A DNA stretch of 64,000 nucleotides from Candidatus Latescibacterota bacterium (lineage in GTDB: Bacteria > Latescibacterota > UBA2968 > UBA8231). The stretch is from assembly GCA_965261395.1 (NCBI GenBank), contig OZ253462.1, forward strand, positions 2,912,001-2,976,000. Reading direction: 5' to 3'. The notes beneath the pieces are model-generated. The model ran no database searches and was not told the DNA's origin. It saw nothing but the letters and a program-made list of their open reading frames with translations. A program made the position numbers and the translations under genes. Positions 53,317 through 63,919 of this stretch are shown piece by piece (within the stretch, counting starts at the first letter, position 1; every line of letters starts with the position of its first letter).

Positions 53317-56300
53317 CGGCTCATCCCCGCGTGTGCGGGAACATATTGCAGAGAGTCGCGGCGTAACAACTTCACCCGGCTCATCCCCGCGTGTGCGGGG
53401 AACATTTAATAGTTTGCCACATAATGTGGTTAACTAGCGGCTCATCCCCGCGTGTGCGGGGAACATACAATGTGAAATCTACGCTGGGGCACCGCATCCG
53501 GTTCATCCCCGCGTGTGCGGGGAACATCACCATTCGCAGATCGTAGTCGTTCACGCTAACGGTTCATCCCCGCGTGTGCGGGGAACATCAGGTTCATCGG
53601 ATATAGAGCGCCAGCGGCGACGGTTCATCCCCGCGTGTGCGGGGAACATTTGGTAGGCAACCCCCCATCATTGGACCAGGCCGGTTCATCCCCGCGTGTG
53701 CGGGGAACATATGCTGATGCTGGCGAGGGCGAAGGGGTTCATCCCCGCGTGTGCGGGGAACATCTCGACAAGGCCCGCGACCGGTCAGCCAAGACCGGTT
53801 CATCCCCGCGTGTGCGGGGAACATATGGTGGAGGTCATAGTCACCCTCTCCAAGCTCGGTTCATCCCCGCGTGTGCGGGGAACATTTGCAGATGTTGACG
53901 GGTGCATAATGCGTATCCGGTTCATCCCCGCGTGTGCGGGGAACATGATGTAAATTTCCTGTGTCGCGCGCCGTCTGCCGGTTCATCCCCGCGTGTGCGG
54001 GGAACATTTCACGCAGGCGGCCAAAGAAGGCAACGTCCGCGGTTCATCCCCGCGTGTGCGGGGAACATTCCCTGGTCTGCCGAACCGAATCGCTAAAATC
54101 CGGTTCATCCCCGCGTGTGCGGGGAACATATTAACGCTCATAGCATCCAGCCCCACCACGCCGGTTCATCCCCGCGTGTGCGGGGAACATGGGGTCAGAA
54201 TACCCATCAGGATATTTCCTTTCGGTTCATCCCCGCGTGTGCGGGGAACATCGCCCCAAGTGGTGCATCATGCACACCAAGGTCGGTTCATCCCCGCGTG
54301 TGCGGGGAACATTGCTCAATCCAAGTCGAACCCGATCTTTCGAGCGGTTCATCCCCGCGTGTGCGGGGAACATCGGCCTCAGTCCCTCTACAATAACATG
54401 ACCATCGGTTCATCCCCGCGTGTGCGGGGAACATCAACAGCTCGAAGACCTCATCGTCAGACAACTCGGTTCATCCCCGCGTGTGCGGGGAACATTGGTG
54501 GTGGTGGCCCTCCGCCGCCGATGTAAACGGTTCATCCCCGCGTGTGCGGGGAACATAGATTATGTATATATCGGCGCAACATCTACGCCGGTTCATCCCC
54601 GCGTGTGCGGGGAACATACCATGGCAACGCAAAACGTATTTCAGATCATCGGTTCATCCCCGCGTGTGCGGGGAACATCCACTTCGGTTTTTTTGAACGC
54701 GAAGGCTTCCCGGTTCATCCCCGCGTGTGCGGGGAACATCCACTTCGGTTTCTTCGAACGCGAGGGTTTTCCGGTTCATCCCCGCGTGTGCGGGGAACAT
54801 ACGACCTAGGATACAATTACAACTCAGCCGGCCGGTTCATCCCCGCGTGTGCGGGGAACATCAAGTCTCAGCCGAGCCCCATTTCTTCTCAGACGGTTCA
54901 TCCCCGCGTGTGCGGGGAACATAAAAACTCGCCTTTTTTGATCGCGTTGAACGCCGGTTCATCCCCGCGTGTGCGGGGAACATAAGCTCGGCCCCATGAC
55001 GTTGCGGTACTCTAACGGTTCATCCCCGCGTGTGCGGGGAACATCTGGGGCTTGAGCCTATGTCGGGGTCGCTTATCGGTTCATCCCCGCGTGTGCGGGG
55101 AACATTCGCAATGCCTTATTGCTTTGCGCGTCAACGTCGGTTCATCCCCGCGTGTGCGGGGAACATCTCCCTGTCGTCAAGGTGAAACAAGGTGCGACCG
55201 GTTCATCCCCGCGTGTGCGGGGAACATTTCGCGCAAGCCCTTTGCCGCTTCTGCGATCTCGGTTCATCCCCGCGTGTGCGGGGAACATTTCGTCAAAGCC
55301 TTTATGCTCGCCCGCAAAGCCGGTTCATCCCCGCGTGTGCGGGGAACATATGCTTGTAACCTTCTGAATGAGGTTGCAAGGCGGTTCATCCCCGCGTGTG
55401 CGGGGAACATTTCCCTATCGAGCAACAGCAGAGAATCAAAGTCGGTTCATCCCCGCGTGTGCGGGGAACATATCTCCTTCTTGACCGCGCTCGCGTCGAT
55501 GTCCGGTTCATCCCCGCGTGTGCGGGGAACATTTCGCATCTGAGCGCGTCCAGCACAAATTTCCCGGTTCATCCCCGCGTGTGCGGGGAACATTTTCGTC
55601 AAAGCCTTTATGCTCGCGTCGATGTCCGGTTCATCCCCGCGTGTGCGGGGAACATATGCAAGCAACCTGCTGAATGAGGTTGCAAGGCGGTTCATCCCCG
55701 CGTGTGCGGGGAACATCTATTGTATTGATTGTATTGAAACGCGAAACACGGTTCATCCCCGCGTGTGCGGGGAACATTAGGGTCAGTATCCTGCGAAGCG
55801 ATGCAATCCTGGTTCATCCCCGCGTGTGCGGGGAACATAAGCAACTGACGTATTGTATTGACGCGAAACACGGTTCATCCCCGCGTGTGCGGGGAACATT
55901 GTAAAGGAATCGCTCGCCGACTCGCTGCCGACGGTTCATCCCCGCGTGTGCGGGGAACATATCGCCAGTCAATGCAGTCCGGTAGAGTCAAGCGGTTCAT
56001 CCCCGCGTGTGCGGGGAACATACGGCGAAACTGCTCGACACCTATGTCGATAGCGGTTCATCCCCGCGTGTGCGGGGAACATACGCCGGGACAATCCGGC
56101 AAAACGCTTTACCACGGTTCATCCCCGCGTGTGCGGGGAACATATACAGATCAGATCAGATCAGATCAGATCAGCCGGTTCATCCCCGCGTGTGCGGGGA
56201 ACATTTTAAAATAGTGGTGGAAAGTGCTTGACAATGCGGTTCATCCCCGCGTGTGCGGGGAACATAAAAGGCCAGCGGTTAAAATTTAACTATTGACCGG

Positions 56301-57424
56301 TTCATCCCCGCGTGTGCGGGGAACATGTTTAACTCCCCTCACGGGAGGAGCCTATCACCGGTTCATCCCCGCGTGTGCGGGGAACATGCGCGCTCGGGGC
56401 TTTTCTCGATGCGCGTTTTCGGTTCATCCCCGCGTGTGCGGGGAACATAGGTAGGCCGTGTACGGCCCGGTTGCCGATACCGGTTCATCCCCGCGTGTGC
56501 GGGGAACATCGGTTTAACTGCCATTGCTGGCAGCCCATCACCGGTTCATCCCCGCGTGTGCGGGGAACATTGCGATAGGGAGCGCGTTTATTGTGCGTGT
56601 TACGGTTCATCCCCGCGTGTGCGGGGAACATTCTCAATTATTGCTTGTGTTGGTATCGGCTACCGGTTCATCCCCGCGTGTGCGGGGAACATCGGTTTAA
56701 CTCCCGTCGCCGGGAGCCCATCACCGGTTCATCCCCGCGTGTGCGGGGAACATTTCTGCAAAGCCTTTATGCTCGTCCTCAGGGCCGGTTCATCCCCGCG
56801 TGTGCGGGGAACATTGTAAAGGAAACGCCCGCCGGCTCGTCGCCGACGGTTCATCCCCGCGTGTGCGGGGAACATTCCGGTTGGAACAAGGTAGGTTTTT
56901 CCTGCTACGGTTCATCCCCGCGTGTGCGGGGAACATGTGTGGGCTGAACTTTGGATCAGCCCGTGCGGCGGTTCATCCCCGCGTGTGCGGGGAACATCCT
57001 TGTGAGTGTGCTGCGTTTCCTGGGCTGAGCGGTTCATCCCCGCGTGTGCGGGGAACATAATATCGGCCAGCTTGGCCGATACAATGTTCGCGGTTCATCC
57101 CCGCGTGTGCGGGGAACATTGAGCAACTTCGGCAATCAGCAAGGCAAGGGCCGGTTCATCCCCGCGTGTGCGGGGAACATCCTCTATCGTCAAGTATCTC
57201 TGGGTGCTGCGTCGGTTCATCCCCGCGTGTGCGGGGAACATCGGGTGCTAATGGCGTTGAATAGTGCGAGTAGCGGTTCATCCCCGCGTGTGCGGGGAAC
57301 ATCTGGTATTCTTCGTCCAGGTGTTTGCGAGCATCGGTTCATCCCCGCGTGTGCGGGGAACATAATACCCGCACTCACATGAGGTAAATTTCAATCGGTT
57401 CATCCCCGCGTGTGCGGGGAACAT
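53317..57424 (-). CRISPR. Type I-E CRISPR array, 68 repeats/67 spacers, repeat ATGTTCCCCGCACACGCGGGGATGAACCG
   Basis: 29 bp repeat, 61 bp period, mostly 32 bp spacers; degenerate repeats at the 53317 end, leader next to cas2; counted by eye. Confidence 0.98.
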
Positions 57425-57529: not shown

Positions 57530-57808
57530 TCACTCAGGCAAAAAAGATACGAGTCGAAGACCGTCAAAATCCACAGGTATCCGGCGGTTTGTGCCAAAGG
57601 TTTCAAACTCAAACCCCGCGTCATTGGGGGCGGCCCAAGCAATCACAGCATCACCGTCGCCGATGAGCTCGCACACATTGTCGCGGATCATAGCGCGGGT
57701 CTTTGCCGAGTAGTTGCCGATATAGACACCGGCTCGAAGTTCCAGAAGCCAAACCGCGAGCCGGCCCCGCAGGCGCGGCGGCACATTATTAGTCACCACT
57801 ATCATCAT
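57530..57808 (-). CDS. cas2: Type I-E Cas2
   Basis: VPPRLRGRLAVWLLELRAGVYIG, PVDFDGLRLVSF. Confidence 0.96.
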   Translation of the reverse strand: MMIVVTNNVPPRLRGRLAVWLLELRAGVYIGNYSAKTRAMIRDNVCELIGDGDAVIAWAAPNDAGFEFETFGTNRRIPVDFDGLRLVSFLPE

Positions 57809-58752
57809 CCTCGATGGCCCTCATCTCCGCTTGAAGGTGGATCGGCAAAGGCCGGGCCTACCGCATCATCTGGCATTTTCGGCGGCGGCAACTCGCCCGC
57901 TGCGAGCACTTCTCCGATGGTTGGAATCAGTCGCCTGAGCAGCTTGGTTCTGCGGAACGTGTCCCGACACGCCAAGCGCACTTCGCGCACAGGCTCGGCA
58001 GAACGCCCCTTCGCGTGCTGTCCCGCAATGCGAAACGCTGTCGGCACCGCCGTCTCAAATTTGAATAAATCGGCAATGTCGTACACAAAGGAGAGGGGTT
58101 TACCAGTATGCAAGAAGCCGACTGCTGGGGCATATCCAGCCGCGAGCACGGCGGCTTCCGTAATGCCGTAGAGGCAGGCAGTTGCTGCCGAGAGGCAGCG
58201 GTTGGGCACATCGGAGAAGTTCCAATCCGAAGGATCGTAGCTGCGCCTTTTCCACTGTACTCCAAACTGCCGCGCCAAATTCTCATAAAGCGCACGTACA
58301 CGCGCCCCCTCAATTCCGCGAAGCTGTTCGACAGAACGGCGTTGCGGCGCTCGCTCGTCAAATCGGATTTGATACATCCGCCGCACGATCTTCAGCCGAG
58401 CGTCGGGGTCAAGCGCGAGGCGGCACTGCCACAGAAGCCTGTCGGACCGGGCACCTCCCGGCTGACCAGCCGCGTATAGGCGCACCCCGGCTTCACCGAC
58501 CCATATCAGCAAAGTACCGACCCGTGCGGCGAGTGCCACTGCAGCATGACTGACCCGCGCACCAGGTTCGAGCATGATGCAAGCCAACCCGCCAACGGGG
58601 ATGTGCGTCCGCACCCCCTTTACATCTACGAGCACAAAAGCTCCATCGAGTACGTCGAGTTGGCCCTTCTCCACAAAAACGATAGAGGTGCGGTCCTTTA
58701 TGGGGATCGGCTTGGGGGGCGGAGCACCCGGCATTCTGTCAGGGCTAGCCAT
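57805..58752 (-). CDS. cas1: Type I-E Cas1
   Basis: MLEPGARVSHAA, GEAGVRLY, LRGIEG, GFLHTGKPLSFVYDIAD. Confidence 0.97.
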   Translation of the reverse strand: MASPDRMPGAPPPKPIPIKDRTSIVFVEKGQLDVLDGAFVLVDVKGVRTHIPVGGLACIMLEPGARVSHAAVALAARVGTLLIWVGEAGVRLYAAGQPGGARSDRLLWQCRLALDPDARLKIVRRMYQIRFDERAPQRRSVEQLRGIEGARVRALYENLARQFGVQWKRRSYDPSDWNFSDVPNRCLSAATACLYGITEAAVLAAGYAPAVGFLHTGKPLSFVYDIADLFKFETAVPTAFRIAGQHAKGRSAEPVREVRLACRDTFRRTKLLRRLIPTIGEVLAAGELPPPKMPDDAVGPAFADPPSSGDEGHRG

Positions 58753-58775
58753 CAAGCGATCCTGCGTATAAGCGA

Positions 58776-58865
58776 TGGTTCATCCCCGCATGTGCGGGGA
58801 ACACAGAGGTAGTCATCAGGCGATCCTGCGCATGAGTGGGTCATCCTCGCGTGTGCGGGGAACAT
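58776..58865 (-). CRISPR. Mini-array (2 repeats, 32 nt spacer) at the cas6e/cas1 junction
   Basis: Repeats at 58776-58804 and 58837-58865; flanked by duplicated CTGCGTATAAGC. Confidence 0.92.
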
Positions 58866-59608
58866 CTGCGTATAAGCATCAGGCCGCAGCCAAATGCCTT
58901 GCCGCGCCCGAATCCCTGCCGAAGGCGGGCGAGAAACGAGTTAGGCTCGGTTATGGTCAAAGCACCTTTGAGGTCGAATATGCCCAAAGTGCCGAATTTC
59001 CCACCGCGCCGTGCGAAACGCTCGGCTCGATAGCCTTCGAGCATCAGTGCGTCAAGGCAGAATCCGTATGCTTCGGCCCGCGCCGCTAGCCAGTCGTAGG
59101 CCGCCTTTTTGGCAAACTGCATCCGATACTTGGCGCGGTTGAGGGATTCATCCCCGCGTGTGCGGGGAACATTCTTGAGCAAGTCCATGGCCACATCGCA
59201 GCGTTGCCGTATGGCCGGTTCATTCCCGTGTGTGCGAGAAACTTTCCGATCGACCGTGGCGTTAAGGCGCAGATCGAACGCCAGCCGGTCTCCTGGCGAG
59301 AGTGTCGGCTCGAAGGGCTTCGTCTCGATAGCGAAGAAGGGAGAGTCTTCCAAAGGCTTGGGGCCGAGAAGATAGTACCGCCCGCGCTGGCGGTCGGCCC
59401 GCCAAAGAAACGCGGATTTCGGCGTACCGGCAGTCCGGCTCTGCTCTACCTCAGTACGCACATTTGGCGGGATGACCGTCCAGATCAGCCGGTGATCTAC
59501 CGCGAGGCGGTCAGACGACTTTGATGGCTGAAGGACCTGTAGCAGGGGAGCTATGTCTGCGGCGTCGCGCCGGAGCGTAAGACGCGAAAAGTGGAGTGGC
59601 TCACTCAT
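58841..59608 (-). CDS. cas6e: Cas6e (Cse3) crRNA endoribonuclease
   Basis: HRLIW, LAFDLRLNAT, C-terminal GFGRGKAFGCGL G-loop. Confidence 0.95.
   Translation of the reverse strand: MSEPLHFSRLTLRRDAADIAPLLQVLQPSKSSDRLAVDHRLIWTVIPPNVRTEVEQSRTAGTPKSAFLWRADRQRGRYYLLGPKPLEDSPFFAIETKPFEPTLSPGDRLAFDLRLNATVDRKVSRTHGNEPAIRQRCDVAMDLLKNVPRTRGDESLNRAKYRMQFAKKAAYDWLAARAEAYGFCLDALMLEGYRAERFARRGGKFGTLGIFDLKGALTITEPNSFLARLRQGFGRGKAFGCGLMLIRRCSPHTRG
59144..59244 (-). CRISPR. Two CRISPR repeats embedded in frame within cas6e
   Basis: 59144-59172 matches consensus 27/29, 59216-59244 matches 24/29. Confidence 0.88.
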
Positions 59609-60353: not shown

Positions 60354-60443
60354 CGGTTCGTCCCCGCGGATACGGGGAACATCCTACGTGTAGTTGGATG
60401 TCGTCGCTTCAATCCGGTTCATCCCCGCAGGTGCGGGGAACGT
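60354..60443 (-). CRISPR. Mini-array (2 diverged repeats, 32 nt spacer) between cas7 and cas5
   Basis: Repeats at 60354-60382 and 60415-60443 with intact stems. Confidence 0.9.
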
Positions 60444-63748: not shown

Positions 63749-63792
63749 TGATATCTCCTTAAAATATATAACTAACCAACAGCTTACTACAT

Positions 63793-63821
63793 ACTCTAAA
63801 GAGGCAATCGTACCTTGTCAA
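63793..63821 (-). promoter_or_regulatory. Predicted cascade operon promoter TTGACA-17-TAGAGT
   Basis: Consensus -35 at 63821-63816, -10 at 63798-63793, AAGGAG RBS at 63760-63755. Confidence 0.75.
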
Positions 63822-63842
63822 GGGCAAGTTGCGGTCCATCAT

Positions 63843-63919
63843 TAATTAATCCCCGTGTGTACGGGGAACACGTTAGCCGACAGCATACTACGGCTCATTC
63901 CCGCGTCTGCGGGACAACA
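63843..63919 (-). ncRNA. crRNA-like regulatory RNA (CreR-type mini-array) with 19 nt spacer targeting the cas8e promoter
   Basis: Two diverged repeats with compensatory stems; spacer matches 63771-63789 with ATG PAM. Confidence 0.85.

What the first reader, a model, noticed from the sequence alone, without database searches (positions are those of the whole stretch)
58741..58879. Mini-array inserted at its own target: spacer is a homologue of the cas6e/cas1 junction
Seen: the spacer (crRNA sense CTCATGCGCAGGATCGCCTGATGACTACCTCT) matches the adjacent CTTATACGCAGGATCGCTTGATGGCTAGCCCT (58772-58741, covering the cas1 start) at 26/32, with mismatches at 3, 6, 18, 24, 28 and 30. It reads LMRRIA*/MTTS versus LIRRIA*/MASP. 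A 12-bp duplication (58762-58773 and 58866-58877) flanks the unit. The pre-insertion site would have had an ATG PAM, whereas the full match now has TCG. The cas6e stop codon now lies inside a repeat, 3' of the predicted cut, so cleavage would leave a non-stop mRNA. Inference: a spacer from a related cas locus was placed at its target site and may act as a regulator of cas1-cas2.
Basis: partly seen in the sequence, partly recalled or inferred. Interest (0 to 1): 0.8.

Follow-up and report, generated by a model that had tools for sequence, protein, structure and literature searches.

The report
CRISPR unit inserted beside own target
A single CRISPR repeat-spacer-repeat unit sits between two genes of the CRISPR machinery itself, next to the sequence its spacer resembles; it looks like the scar of an immune system that once attacked its own genes, and may show how small CRISPR-derived regulators are born.

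Summary
A 104-nt block lies between cas6e and cas1 of a complete type I-E locus, all on the minus strand. It holds repeat R1, a 32-nt spacer, repeat R2, 2 filler bases and a 12-nt duplication. The spacer matches the adjacent native junction at 26 of 32. That is the best match in the 6.55-Mb genome; the next best is 23. None of 10 related loci carries the block. One metagenome locus (L118) shows an empty site whose 75 nt equal G000's flanks with the block removed. A contig from another study bridges it, so it is not a misassembly.

My best explanation is a scar of self-targeting. R1 starts exactly 32 nt after an AAG motif. This fits a second, self-derived spacer in the array that templated repair of a break and dragged R1-spacer-R2 along.

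The claim that it regulates cas1-cas2 through Cascade is weak, for four reasons:
- the PAM is lost (TCG);
- there is a seed mismatch;
- the 5' handle has decayed and the R1 hairpin is weakened;
- no relative conserves it.

A conserved CreR-like mini-array upstream of cas8e meets all these criteria. Two further mini-arrays lie inside the operon, one of them in frame within cas6e.

The parts
58898..58900 (-). AAG, a canonical type I-E PAM, exactly 32 nt upstream of R1
   Evidence: AAG makes up 1.64% of trinucleotides in the operon sense strand.
58866..58897 (-). The last 32 nt of native cas6e sequence before R1. It is in register as a PAM-flanked protospacer ('S0'). Its last 12 nt (58877-58866) are the left copy of the duplication.
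   Evidence: The same sequence is in the empty-site locus L118.
58837..58865 (-). Repeat R1. It has 3 changes from the array consensus, one of which breaks the stem. It holds the cas6e stop codon TGA at 58843-58841.
   Evidence: Hairpin energy is -7.4 against -14.3 kcal/mol for the consensus.
58805..58836 (-). 32-nt spacer, a homologue of the cas6e/cas1 junction of an unsampled related locus
   Evidence: It has 0 hits at up to 3 mismatches in 167 other genomes of the phylum. Its 23-nt core has 0 hits in metagenome and viral contigs.
58776..58804 (-). Repeat R2. It has 3 changes from the consensus and an intact stem.
   Evidence: exact query match. Hairpin energy is -14.4 kcal/mol.
58774..58775 (-). 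TC, filler bases between R2 and the right copy of the duplication
   Evidence: 3 of the 67 main-array spacers begin with TCG.
58741..58773 (-). Right copy of the duplication (58773-58762) and the native 32-nt junction homologue (58772-58741). It carries the former cas6e stop (58754-58752) and the cas1 ATG (58752-58750).
58745..58816 (-). 23-codon upstream reading frame. It starts at the cas1-type ATG carried in the spacer, which keeps its AGGA. It ends at a TAG 5 nt past the real cas1 ATG.
   Evidence: Read; not tested
58841..59608 (-). cas6e (255 aa). Its tail is now LIRRCSPHTRG instead of LIRRIA.
   Evidence: NCBIfam TIGR01907, 94.9 bits against a cut-off of 45.2.
57805..58755 (-). cas1
   Evidence: NCBIfam TIGR03638, 363.9 bits against a cut-off of 215.6
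59144..59244 (-). Second mini-array, in frame inside cas6e. It has a degenerate repeat (59244-59216), 43 nt of native cas6e sequence, and a near-perfect repeat (59172-59144).
   Evidence: Hairpins are -5.3 and -14.3 kcal/mol.
60354..60443 (-). Third mini-array, between cas7 and cas5. It has a repeat, a 32-nt spacer (60414-60383) homologous to the 3' end of cas7 in related loci, and a second repeat.
63771..63919 (-). Conserved CreR-like mini-array (63919-63843) and its ATG-flanked target (63789-63771) at the cas8e promoter-like site. The cas3 stop codon lies inside its first repeat-like sequence.
53321..57424 (-). Main CRISPR array: 68 repeats and 67 spacers

Best explanation
The block is a genuine, lineage-specific insertion of one CRISPR repeat-spacer-repeat unit at the cas6e/cas1 boundary of an intact type I-E locus. 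The closest record titles read Candidatus Latescibacterota.

Proposed origin. Every step below is inferred:
1. The array acquired spacer S from the same boundary of a sibling locus.
2. S cross-matched the cell's own boundary imperfectly. This primed acquisition of a neighbouring spacer, S0, that matched the cell's own DNA perfectly. S0 is the AAG-flanked 32 nt that now abut R1.
3. The resulting break inside that protospacer was repaired by copying from the array. The copied stretch was the last 11-12 nt of S0, then R1, S, R2 and the first 2-3 nt of the next spacer. The end was then joined back.
4. This one event would create the 12-nt duplication, leave R1 in register with AAG, and place S beside its own partial target with the PAM displaced.

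Present-day effects shown by the sequence:
- Cas6e has a new 5-residue-longer tail, and its stop codon lies inside R1.
- The cas6e/cas1 stop-start overlap is lost.
- cas1 keeps its own ribosome-binding site and ATG.

Present-day effects that are inferred:
- Cas6e probably still cuts at R2, severing cas1-cas2 mRNA from the Cascade genes. It probably cuts R1 less well.
- Any guide RNA released cannot attack its own locus.
- The unit is now mostly a decaying scar.
For: Insertion and empty sites:
- 0 of 10 related loci carry the block.
- L118 has an empty site whose 75 nt equal G000's flanks with the block removed.
- L118 and L042 align to both flanks with a 12-nt overlap in the subject.

The block is real. 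Independent contigs cover it.

The spacer is a homologue of the junction:
- It matches the adjacent site at 26 of 32, the best match in the genome.
- It matches other alleles at 23-26 of 32, and all of them have an ATG PAM.

Array-templated repair:
- AAG lies exactly 32 nt before R1. The chance of this is about 0.016.
- The duplicated 12 nt are the 3' end of that in-register 32-mer.
- The two bases after R2 fit the start of an ordinary spacer; 3 of the 67 main-array spacers begin with TCG.
- None of the 67 present-day spacers matches the operon or the genome, as expected if the self-matching spacer had to be lost.

Decay:
- R1 and R2 each have 3 changes, whereas 63 of 68 array repeats are identical.
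- The R1 hairpin is -7.4 against -14.3 kcal/mol.

Background. Self-targeting that is resolved by mutation, deletion or recombination is documented (passages of PMC6990116).
Against: - No array holding S0 next to S has been seen. The spacer was found in no other genome or contig.
- The AAG register is a post-hoc observation with a chance probability of about 0.02-0.06.
- The right-hand join needs end joining with 1-2 nt of microhomology, which is assumed.
- The other two intra-operon mini-arrays do not show the same register. The cas7/cas5 one is a roughly 170-nt replacement that includes unrelated sequence. So one mechanism may not explain all three.
- The block survives nearly unchanged in a second lineage, X16: 3 differences in 539 nt, while upstream cas genes differ by 2.9-6.8%. 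This could mean it is kept or spread by selection rather than being a neutral scar.
Confidence: 0.5

Rival explanations
1. CreR-like regulator. The unit makes a guide RNA that brings Cascade to the partly matching junction. Cascade binds without cutting and lowers read-through into cas1-cas2.
For: - The geometry resembles known regulatory mini-arrays: the unit lies just upstream of a partly matching target on the same strand (passages of bioRxiv 10.1101/2023.03.03.530964 and 10.1101/2023.03.10.532045).
- 4 of the 6 mismatches fall on every-sixth positions. Those positions do not pair in type I Cascade (recalled for I-E; stated for I-F1 in a passage).
- The left partial copy keeps an ATG PAM.
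Against: - The full target has PAM TCG and a seed mismatch at position 3.
- The partial target matches 9 of its first 11 positions and has the same seed mismatch.
- 2 of the 8 handle bases are changed, and the R1 stem is broken.
- No promoter-like site lies nearby.
- The guide has the same sense as the mRNA. In E. coli that is the weaker orientation for blocking elongation (recalled).
- 0 of 10 related loci have it.
- The conserved upstream element of the same locus shows an intact seed, a PAM, a promoter target and covariation.
Confidence: 0.12
2. Cas6e processing site. The repeat hairpins work in cis. Cas6e cuts the operon mRNA at R2 (and weakly at R1), and at the other in-operon repeats. 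This uncouples cas1-cas2 from the Cascade genes and feeds back on cas6e itself. This is compatible with a scar origin.
For: - At least four hairpins inside the operon are as stable, or nearly as stable, as array repeats. They start at 60443, 60382, 59172 and 58804, with energies of -12.1 to -14.4 kcal/mol.
- One lies inside the cas6e reading frame.
- In the cas7/cas5 unit the stems are kept while loops and ends vary among 4 loci.
- cas3 and cas6e both end at the TGA at repeat positions 23-25.
Against: - No RNA data were laid.
- The R1 stem is damaged.
- The junction unit is not conserved.
- I found no paper describing Cas6e cutting its own operon mRNA (search, which is far from exhaustive).
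Confidence: 0.2
3. Homing-like or anti-sibling element. The guide cuts empty alleles of sibling loci (ATG PAM plus protospacer). Its own allele is immune because the insertion separates PAM from protospacer. Cutting followed by recombination would spread the unit.
For: - The G003-type allele has an ATG PAM, an intact seed, and only 2 mismatches (28, 31) outside every-sixth positions.
- The insertion splits the PAM from the target, as a homing endonuclease gene splits its own site (recalled analogy).
- In X16 the junction and cas1-cas2 segment is about 0.5% different, while upstream genes differ by 2.9-6.8%.
- The cas7/cas5 spacer likewise matches sibling cas7 alleles at 27-29 of 32 with an AAG PAM.
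- Arrays whose spacers match cognate cas genes are known (passages of PMC2886076).
Against: - The exact empty allele (L118) has the seed mismatch at position 3, so it would be a poor target.
- The handle and the R1 hairpin have decayed.
- The unit was seen in only one species representative plus one run.
- No mechanism for merodiploidy is known here.
Confidence: 0.07
4. Assembly artefact that joins two strain variants.
For: The genome comes from uncultured material (record titles of relatives). Repeats break short-read contigs: contig ends are seen at 59145-59172.
Against: - A contig from another study bridges 58634-59172 with 3 differences and no gaps.
- 7 runs from 3 studies hold all sampled words.
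- The structure is a clean insertion with a duplication, not a chimeric join.
Confidence: 0.01

Closest known systems
CreR / CreA-type regulatory mini-arrays (crRNA-like RNAs) in cas loci. Passages read in bioRxiv 10.1101/2023.03.10.532045 and 10.1101/2023.03.03.530964.
   Same: Two repeat-like sequences flank one spacer inside a cas locus. The spacer partly matches a nearby site in the same locus, on the same strand and downstream of the unit.
   Different: - Known type I-E cases sit between cas3 and cas8e and target the cas8e promoter, with a PAM and an intact seed. This one sits between cas6e and cas1.
- It has a full-length spacer, a lost PAM and a seed mismatch.
- It has no promoter at the target and is not conserved.
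- The locus already has a canonical element of that kind at 63919-63771.
Residual arrays whose spacers match cognate cas genes (the 'anti-CRISPR' arrays of Touchon and Rocha 2010, PMC2886076; passages read)
   Same: The spacers derive from cas genes of the same subtype, which suggests conflict between related CRISPR-Cas loci.
   Different: Those arrays are orphan and occur in genomes that lack the matched cas genes. Here the units lie inside an intact operon, next to the homologous sites.
Self-targeting spacers and their escape routes (review PMC6990116; passages read)
   Same: A spacer matches the cell's own chromosome and is made harmless by PAM loss and a seed mismatch.
   Different: The escape routes in the passages I read are point mutation, deletion, spacer loss and cas loss. 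I did not see the repeat-spacer-repeat unit being copied into the target itself in those passages, or in the listings.
Off-target ('neo-CRISPR') spacer integration by Cas1-Cas2. Recalled: I saw only the term in the listing and did not read the paper.
   Same: A spacer ends up outside the array.
   Different: That route would flank the spacer with a duplication of about one repeat length of ordinary target DNA. Here the flanks are true CRISPR repeats and the duplication is 12 nt.
Homing endonuclease genes (recalled general knowledge)
   Same: The element is inserted within its own recognition site and thereby disrupts it.
   Different: Nothing shows that empty alleles are cut or that the unit spreads. 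The nuclease is supplied by the host locus.

Membership tests
[quoted passage not shown] | cas3, cas8e (cse1), cse2, cas7, cas5, cas6e, cas1e and cas2e in this order | tested here: met
   NCBIfam type I-E models hit above their cut-offs for 7 proteins. For Cas3 (927 aa) the cas3_core and HD domain models pass their cut-offs; the full-length Cas3 model scores 451 against a cut-off of 569.
[quoted passage not shown] | 29-nt palindromic repeats with 32-nt spacers downstream of cas2 | tested here: met
   There are 68 repeats, and 64 of the 67 spacers are 32 nt. The hairpin energy is -14.3 kcal/mol.
Mini-array in a cas locus (in the sense of bioRxiv 10.1101/2023.03.03.530964) | Two repeat-like sequences flanking one spacer-like sequence, inside the cas locus and apart from the main array | tested here: met
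   R1, spacer and R2 lie at 58865-58776, about 1.35 kb from the array.
CreR / CreA regulatory RNA | The spacer matches its target through the seed, and the target carries a valid PAM | tested here: not met
   The PAM is TCG and there is a mismatch at seed position 3. The left partial copy has an ATG PAM but the same seed mismatch.
CreR / CreA regulatory RNA | The target lies in or next to a cas promoter | tested here: not met
   No promoter-like site lies on the minus strand near 58700-58900. The only strong one is at 63821-63793. The scan uses a sigma-70 consensus, which may not fit this phylum.
CreR / CreA regulatory RNA | Conserved across related loci, with spacer and target changing together | tested here: not met
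   0 of 10 related loci have the junction unit. The upstream element is in 8 of 11 loci and covaries with its target at positions 5 and 9.
CreR / CreA regulatory RNA | A processed RNA that loads into Cascade and represses its target | not testable with these tools
   No RNA reads were laid; the one read-laying run was used on DNA contigs.
Self-targeting spacer with escape | The spacer matches the cell's own chromosome far beyond chance, and the target is disabled | tested here: met
   The match is 26 of 32 against a genome-wide next best of 23. The PAM is displaced and the seed is mismatched. The seed variant CTT also exists in the empty alleles L118 and L042, so it predates the insertion.
Off-target Cas1-Cas2 integration (neo-CRISPR) | The spacer is flanked by a duplication of about one repeat length of the non-CRISPR target | tested here: not met
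   The flanks are CRISPR repeats and the duplication is 12 nt.
Homing-type selfish element | Inserted within its own recognition site, which it disrupts | tested here: met
   The ATG PAM at 58880-58878 is separated from the full protospacer at 58772-58741 by the insert.
Homing-type selfish element | Cuts empty alleles and spreads by repair | tested here: inconclusive
   The G003-type allele looks cleavable, while the exact empty allele L118 has a seed mismatch. The similarity gradient in X16 is only suggestive.

The most novel reading that the evidence does not exclude
The junction unit is a newborn regulatory mini-array. It would reveal how CreR-type regulators arise. A spacer taken from a sibling cas locus primes self-targeting, and repair templated by the array then places repeat-spacer-repeat directly upstream of its own partly matching target. 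Decay of the repeats and trimming of the match would later turn it into a Cascade-guided repressor.

The conserved cas3/cas8e element of the same locus has the same layout. The upstream gene ends at the TGA of the first repeat, in the same frame, and the target lies downstream on the same strand with an ATG PAM. It would be the old, domesticated version.
Probability: 0.2. Interest if true: 0.8.

Novelty: new variant of a known kind. Interest (0 to 1): 0.6.

Why it matters
Mini-arrays that regulate cas genes are known. In what I read, I did not find an explanation of why they sit next to their targets, or of where they come from. This locus offers a dated example:
- an exact empty site;
- a filled site;
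- a boundary in register with a PAM;
- a conserved, mature counterpart a few kilobases away.

If the array-templated repair route is right, three things follow. Autoimmunity would be a source of new regulatory RNAs. Spacer-to-protospacer homology would be a force that reshapes cas operons. And the question of origin could be tested in a standard E. coli type I-E system.

The operon also carries strong Cas6e hairpins inside its own mRNA, one of them in frame within cas6e. This raises the untested possibility that Cas6e processes and limits its own operon transcript.

Tried and rejected
Ideas I raised and then dropped:
1. I first read the CTT at spacer position 3 as an escape mutation unique to this genome, because all 7 loci have CTC. 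This is rejected: the uninserted loci L118 and L042 carry CTT too.
2. I first read a recombination breakpoint exactly at the insert. The left flank is 94-96% identical to G021-type loci and the right flank 90-93% to G003. This is rejected as a consequence of the insert: the uninserted L118 and L042 are 92-96% identical on both sides. The mosaic is older than the insert.
3. I asked whether carriers of the cas7/cas5 unit have specially mutated cas7 targets. This is weakened: L118 and one G005 locus lack the unit but have the same diverged cas7 stretch.

Searches that found nothing:
4. Source of the spacer. There were 0 hits at up to 3 mismatches in 167 other genomes of the phylum. A 23-nt core had 0 hits in metagenome and viral contigs.
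5. None of the 67 main-array spacers matches the operons of G000 and 6 relatives, or the cell's own genome beyond chance.
6. I looked for a remnant of the donor site in the present array. No repeat ending in A is followed by TCG. 3 of the 67 spacers start with TCG, which proves nothing.
7. Other genomic targets of the junction spacer. 23 sites have a PAM plus a seed match, against about 50 expected by chance. The longest run is 12.
8. The AAG-plus-32 register does not hold for the other two in-operon units or for the cas3-side element (read).

Limits of the evidence:
9. The fold of the whole 171-nt region is not unusual, with z = -1.27.
11. Supplementary files of the two mini-array preprints were not opened. 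Their tables may list similar cases.
Full report
WHAT IS THERE. The window holds a complete type I-E locus on the minus strand.
- Genes, in order: cas3 (927 aa, just beyond and overlapping the window end), cas8e, cse2, cas7, cas5, cas6e, cas1 and cas2. NCBIfam type I-E models hit above their cut-offs for the seven window-encoded proteins. For Cas3 the core and HD domain models pass, while the full-length model scores 451 against a cut-off of 569.
- Main array: 68 repeats and 67 spacers, consensus ATGTTCCCCGCACACGCGGGGATGAACCG. 63 of the 68 repeats are identical.
- It is the only locus with this repeat in the 6.55-Mb genome.
- Record titles of the nearest relatives read Candidatus Latescibacterota.

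THE OBSERVATION. It is correct to the base.
- After the cas6e sequence GCTTATACGCAG (58877-58866) come R1 (58865-58837), a 32-nt spacer (58836-58805), R2 (58804-58776) and TC. The same 12 nt then recur (58773-58762), continuing into the native junction (58772-58741).
- Spacer and native junction agree at 26 of 32, with mismatches at 3, 6, 18, 24, 28 and 30.
- Across both strands of the genome the next best match is 23 of 32, at 3 sites.
- The mismatches are what divergence between homologous genes gives. Positions 3, 6 and 18 are third codon positions of cas6e. Positions 24, 28 and 30 change the variable second to fourth residues of Cas1.

IT IS AN INSERTION, AND IT IS REAL.
- A DNA search of 60 relatives found homologous cas6e-cas1 in 6 genomes of the genus, at 7 loci. 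All 7 lack the 104 nt.
- A protein-guided scan added L042 and L046. A metagenome scan added L118. None of these has the block.
- L118 is the exact empty site. Its 75 nt around the junction equal G000's flanks with the block removed, including ATG directly before the protospacer.
- No junction unit was seen in the 65 loci of at least 7 kb out of the 80 fetched, or in the 80 loci. This scan used G000's own repeat core with up to 6 substitutions, so it could miss units in loci with diverged repeats.
- 7 runs of 3 studies hold all 41 sampled words.
- A contig of run X16, from another study and with another organism label, covers 58634-59172 with 3 differences and no gap. A 9260-nt contig of X3 is identical but may be the source of this DNA.

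THE UNIT IS NOT ALONE. The operon holds further repeats.
- Between cas7 and cas5 lies a repeat-spacer-repeat unit (60443-60354).
  - Its spacer is homologous to the 3' coding end of cas7 in sibling loci, always after an AAG: 29 of 32 in L042 and 27 of 32 in G003 and G013.
  - It is shared by 4 of 11 loci.
  - It is part of a roughly 170-nt replacement that also gives cas5 a new start.
- Inside cas6e, in frame, a degenerate repeat and a near-perfect repeat flank 43 nt of native cas6e sequence (59244-59144).
  - Only G000 and, in decayed form, G008 have this.
  - In G003, G021, L042 and L118 the first 32 of those 43 nt are preceded by AAG.
- None of the 67 main-array spacers resembles any cas operon. 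Spacers derived from cas genes are therefore a property of the in-operon units only.

A POSITIVE CONTROL IN THE SAME LOCUS. Between cas3 and cas8e lies a degenerate mini-array (63919-63843) with a 19-nt spacer.
- Its target (63789-63771) follows an ATG and lies directly after the -10 of the only strong promoter-like site (63821-63793), about 40 nt before cas8e.
- Spacer and target were found in 8 of 11 loci. Outside the every-sixth positions, mismatches fall only at 15 and 19 in 7 of these loci, and at 9 and 19 in L041. In all 8 the seed positions 1-5, 7 and 8 pair.
- The two sides change together at position 5 (L118) and position 9 (L038).
- This fits the published CreR-type mini-arrays of type I-E, which sit between cas3 and cas8e (passages).
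- It also shows that ATG serves as a PAM for this system.

HOW THE JUNCTION UNIT COMPARES WITH THAT CONTROL. It fails every criterion.
- The PAM of its full target is TCG, and seed position 3 is mismatched.
- The left partial copy keeps ATG but pairs at only 9 of its first 11 positions.
- No promoter-like site lies near it.
- It is in no relative.
- R1 has lost a stem pair, at -7.4 against -14.3 kcal/mol, and 2 of the 8 handle bases are changed. R2 is intact at -14.4 kcal/mol.
I therefore rate Cascade-guided regulation of cas1-cas2 as unlikely, though untested.

ORIGIN. One detail points to a mechanism. R1 begins exactly 32 nt after an AAG (58900-58898). The native cas6e end thus reads as a canonical PAM-flanked protospacer that runs straight into a repeat, as a spacer would in an array. 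AAG makes up 1.64% of trinucleotides in the operon, so this register has a chance probability of about 0.016.

The duplicated 12 nt are the 3' end of that 32-mer. A single event explains all of this:
- An array carried, side by side, a self-derived spacer (S0) and the older sibling-derived spacer S.
- S0 directed a break inside its own protospacer.
- The left end copied from the array the rest of S0, then R1, S, R2 and two or three bases of the next spacer. It was then joined to the right end.

The adjacency of S0 and S is what primed adaptation would give if an imperfect match of S to the cell's own junction triggered uptake of a neighbouring spacer on the same strand (established for E. coli type I-E; recalled). 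The self-matching spacer must then have been lost, and the present array has none.

Every step of this route is inferred. The register was noticed after the fact. The route does not obviously explain the other two units.

PRESENT-DAY CONSEQUENCES.
Shown by the sequence:
- Cas6e ends LIRRCSPHTRG instead of LIRRIA.
- Its stop codon (58843-58841) is at repeat positions 23-25.
- cas1 keeps its AGGA and ATG.
- The spacer brings a second AGGA-ATG that opens a 23-codon frame, which ends 5 nt past the cas1 ATG.

Inferred:
- Cas6e cutting after repeat position 21 would remove the cas6e stop codon (at R1) and separate cas1-cas2 mRNA from the Cascade genes (at R2).

One fact tempers the non-stop concern. 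In 6 of 8 loci cas3 also ends at the TGA at positions 23-25 of a repeat-like sequence, in the same frame. This layout is old and tolerated.

SIBLING TARGETING.
- Against the G003-type junction the spacer has an ATG PAM, an intact seed and only two mismatches (28, 31) outside the every-sixth positions.
- The cas7/cas5 spacer behaves likewise against sibling cas7 alleles.
- Spacers against cognate cas genes are known from orphan arrays (passages of PMC2886076).
- A homing-like or exclusion role cannot be excluded. In X16 the junction and cas1-cas2 segment differs by about 0.5%, while cas5-cas7 differ by 2.9% and cse2-cas8e by 6.8%.
- However, the exact empty allele L118 has the seed mismatch, and the guide's handle has decayed.

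CORRECTIONS MADE ALONG THE WAY. Two early inferences fell when L118 and L042 were added. One was an escape mutation at position 3. The other was a recombination breakpoint caused by the insert. Both features exist in uninserted alleles.

NOVELTY. Mini-arrays in cas loci, self-targeting spacers and spacers that match cas genes are all known. I did not find two things in print. One is a repeat-spacer-repeat unit placed at its own target, with an empty site and a PAM-registered boundary. The other is CRISPR repeats in frame inside cas6e. My searches were made, with passages of four papers. Supplements were not seen, and subscription journals are not covered. I class the finding as a new variant of a known kind.

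Noticed in passing
window 59144-59244 (- strand), inside cas6e: Two CRISPR repeats lie in frame inside the cas6e coding sequence and flank 43 nt of native cas6e sequence. One is degenerate. The other matches the array consensus at 27 of 29 positions and has a -14.3 kcal/mol hairpin. Only G000 has this, plus G008 in decayed form. In other relatives the same protein segment is 7 codons shorter and unrelated. Cas6e may cut its own mRNA here.
   Followed up: partly
window 60354-60443 (- strand), between cas7 and cas5: This is a repeat-spacer-repeat unit whose spacer is homologous to the 3' end of cas7 in sibling loci: 27-29 of 32, always after an AAG PAM. It is shared by 4 of 11 related loci. Stems are kept while loops vary. 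It is part of a roughly 170-nt replacement that gives cas7 an earlier stop and cas5 a new N-terminus.
   Followed up: partly
window 63771-63919 (- strand), cas3/cas8e spacer region: This is a conserved CreR-like mini-array with a 19-nt spacer. Its ATG-flanked target lies right after the -10 of the cas8e promoter-like site. It is found in 8 of 11 loci, and spacer and target covary at positions 5 and 9.
   Followed up: yes
window 63895-63897 (- strand), and loci L039-L043: The cas3 reading frame runs into the first repeat-like sequence of the upstream mini-array. In 6 of 8 loci it stops at the TGA at repeat positions 23-25. This is the same frame and the same stop that cas6e now uses in R1.
   Followed up: partly
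window 56875 and 55960 (- strand), main-array spacers 10 and 25: Two main-array spacers are 27 of 32 identical to each other. The array has therefore sampled two variants of one target, as the junction spacer and its neighbour would have.
   Followed up: no
window 53710-53763 (- strand), main array unit 61: A variant repeat ending in C is followed by a truncated 24-nt spacer. This is a sign of an old deletion inside the array.
   Followed up: no
L038 817-955 (G008), upstream of cas8e: Here the upstream mini-array has a third, perfect repeat and an extra full-length 32-nt spacer with no match in any of the operons. The regulatory mini-array seems to have taken up a spacer.
   Followed up: partly
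L060 and L093: In these distant type I-E loci the array starts about 130-165 nt after the end of the cas6e match, with no room for cas1-cas2 in between. I did not check whether cas1-cas2 lie elsewhere.
   Followed up: no
Main arrays of L038-L046 and L118: Related loci differ in the 4-nt loop of their array repeat (ACAC, ATAC, AGGC, ACGC), while the stems are identical. The exact empty-site locus L118 has an AGGC-loop array, unlike G000's ACAC. The operons and arrays are therefore mosaics.
   Followed up: no
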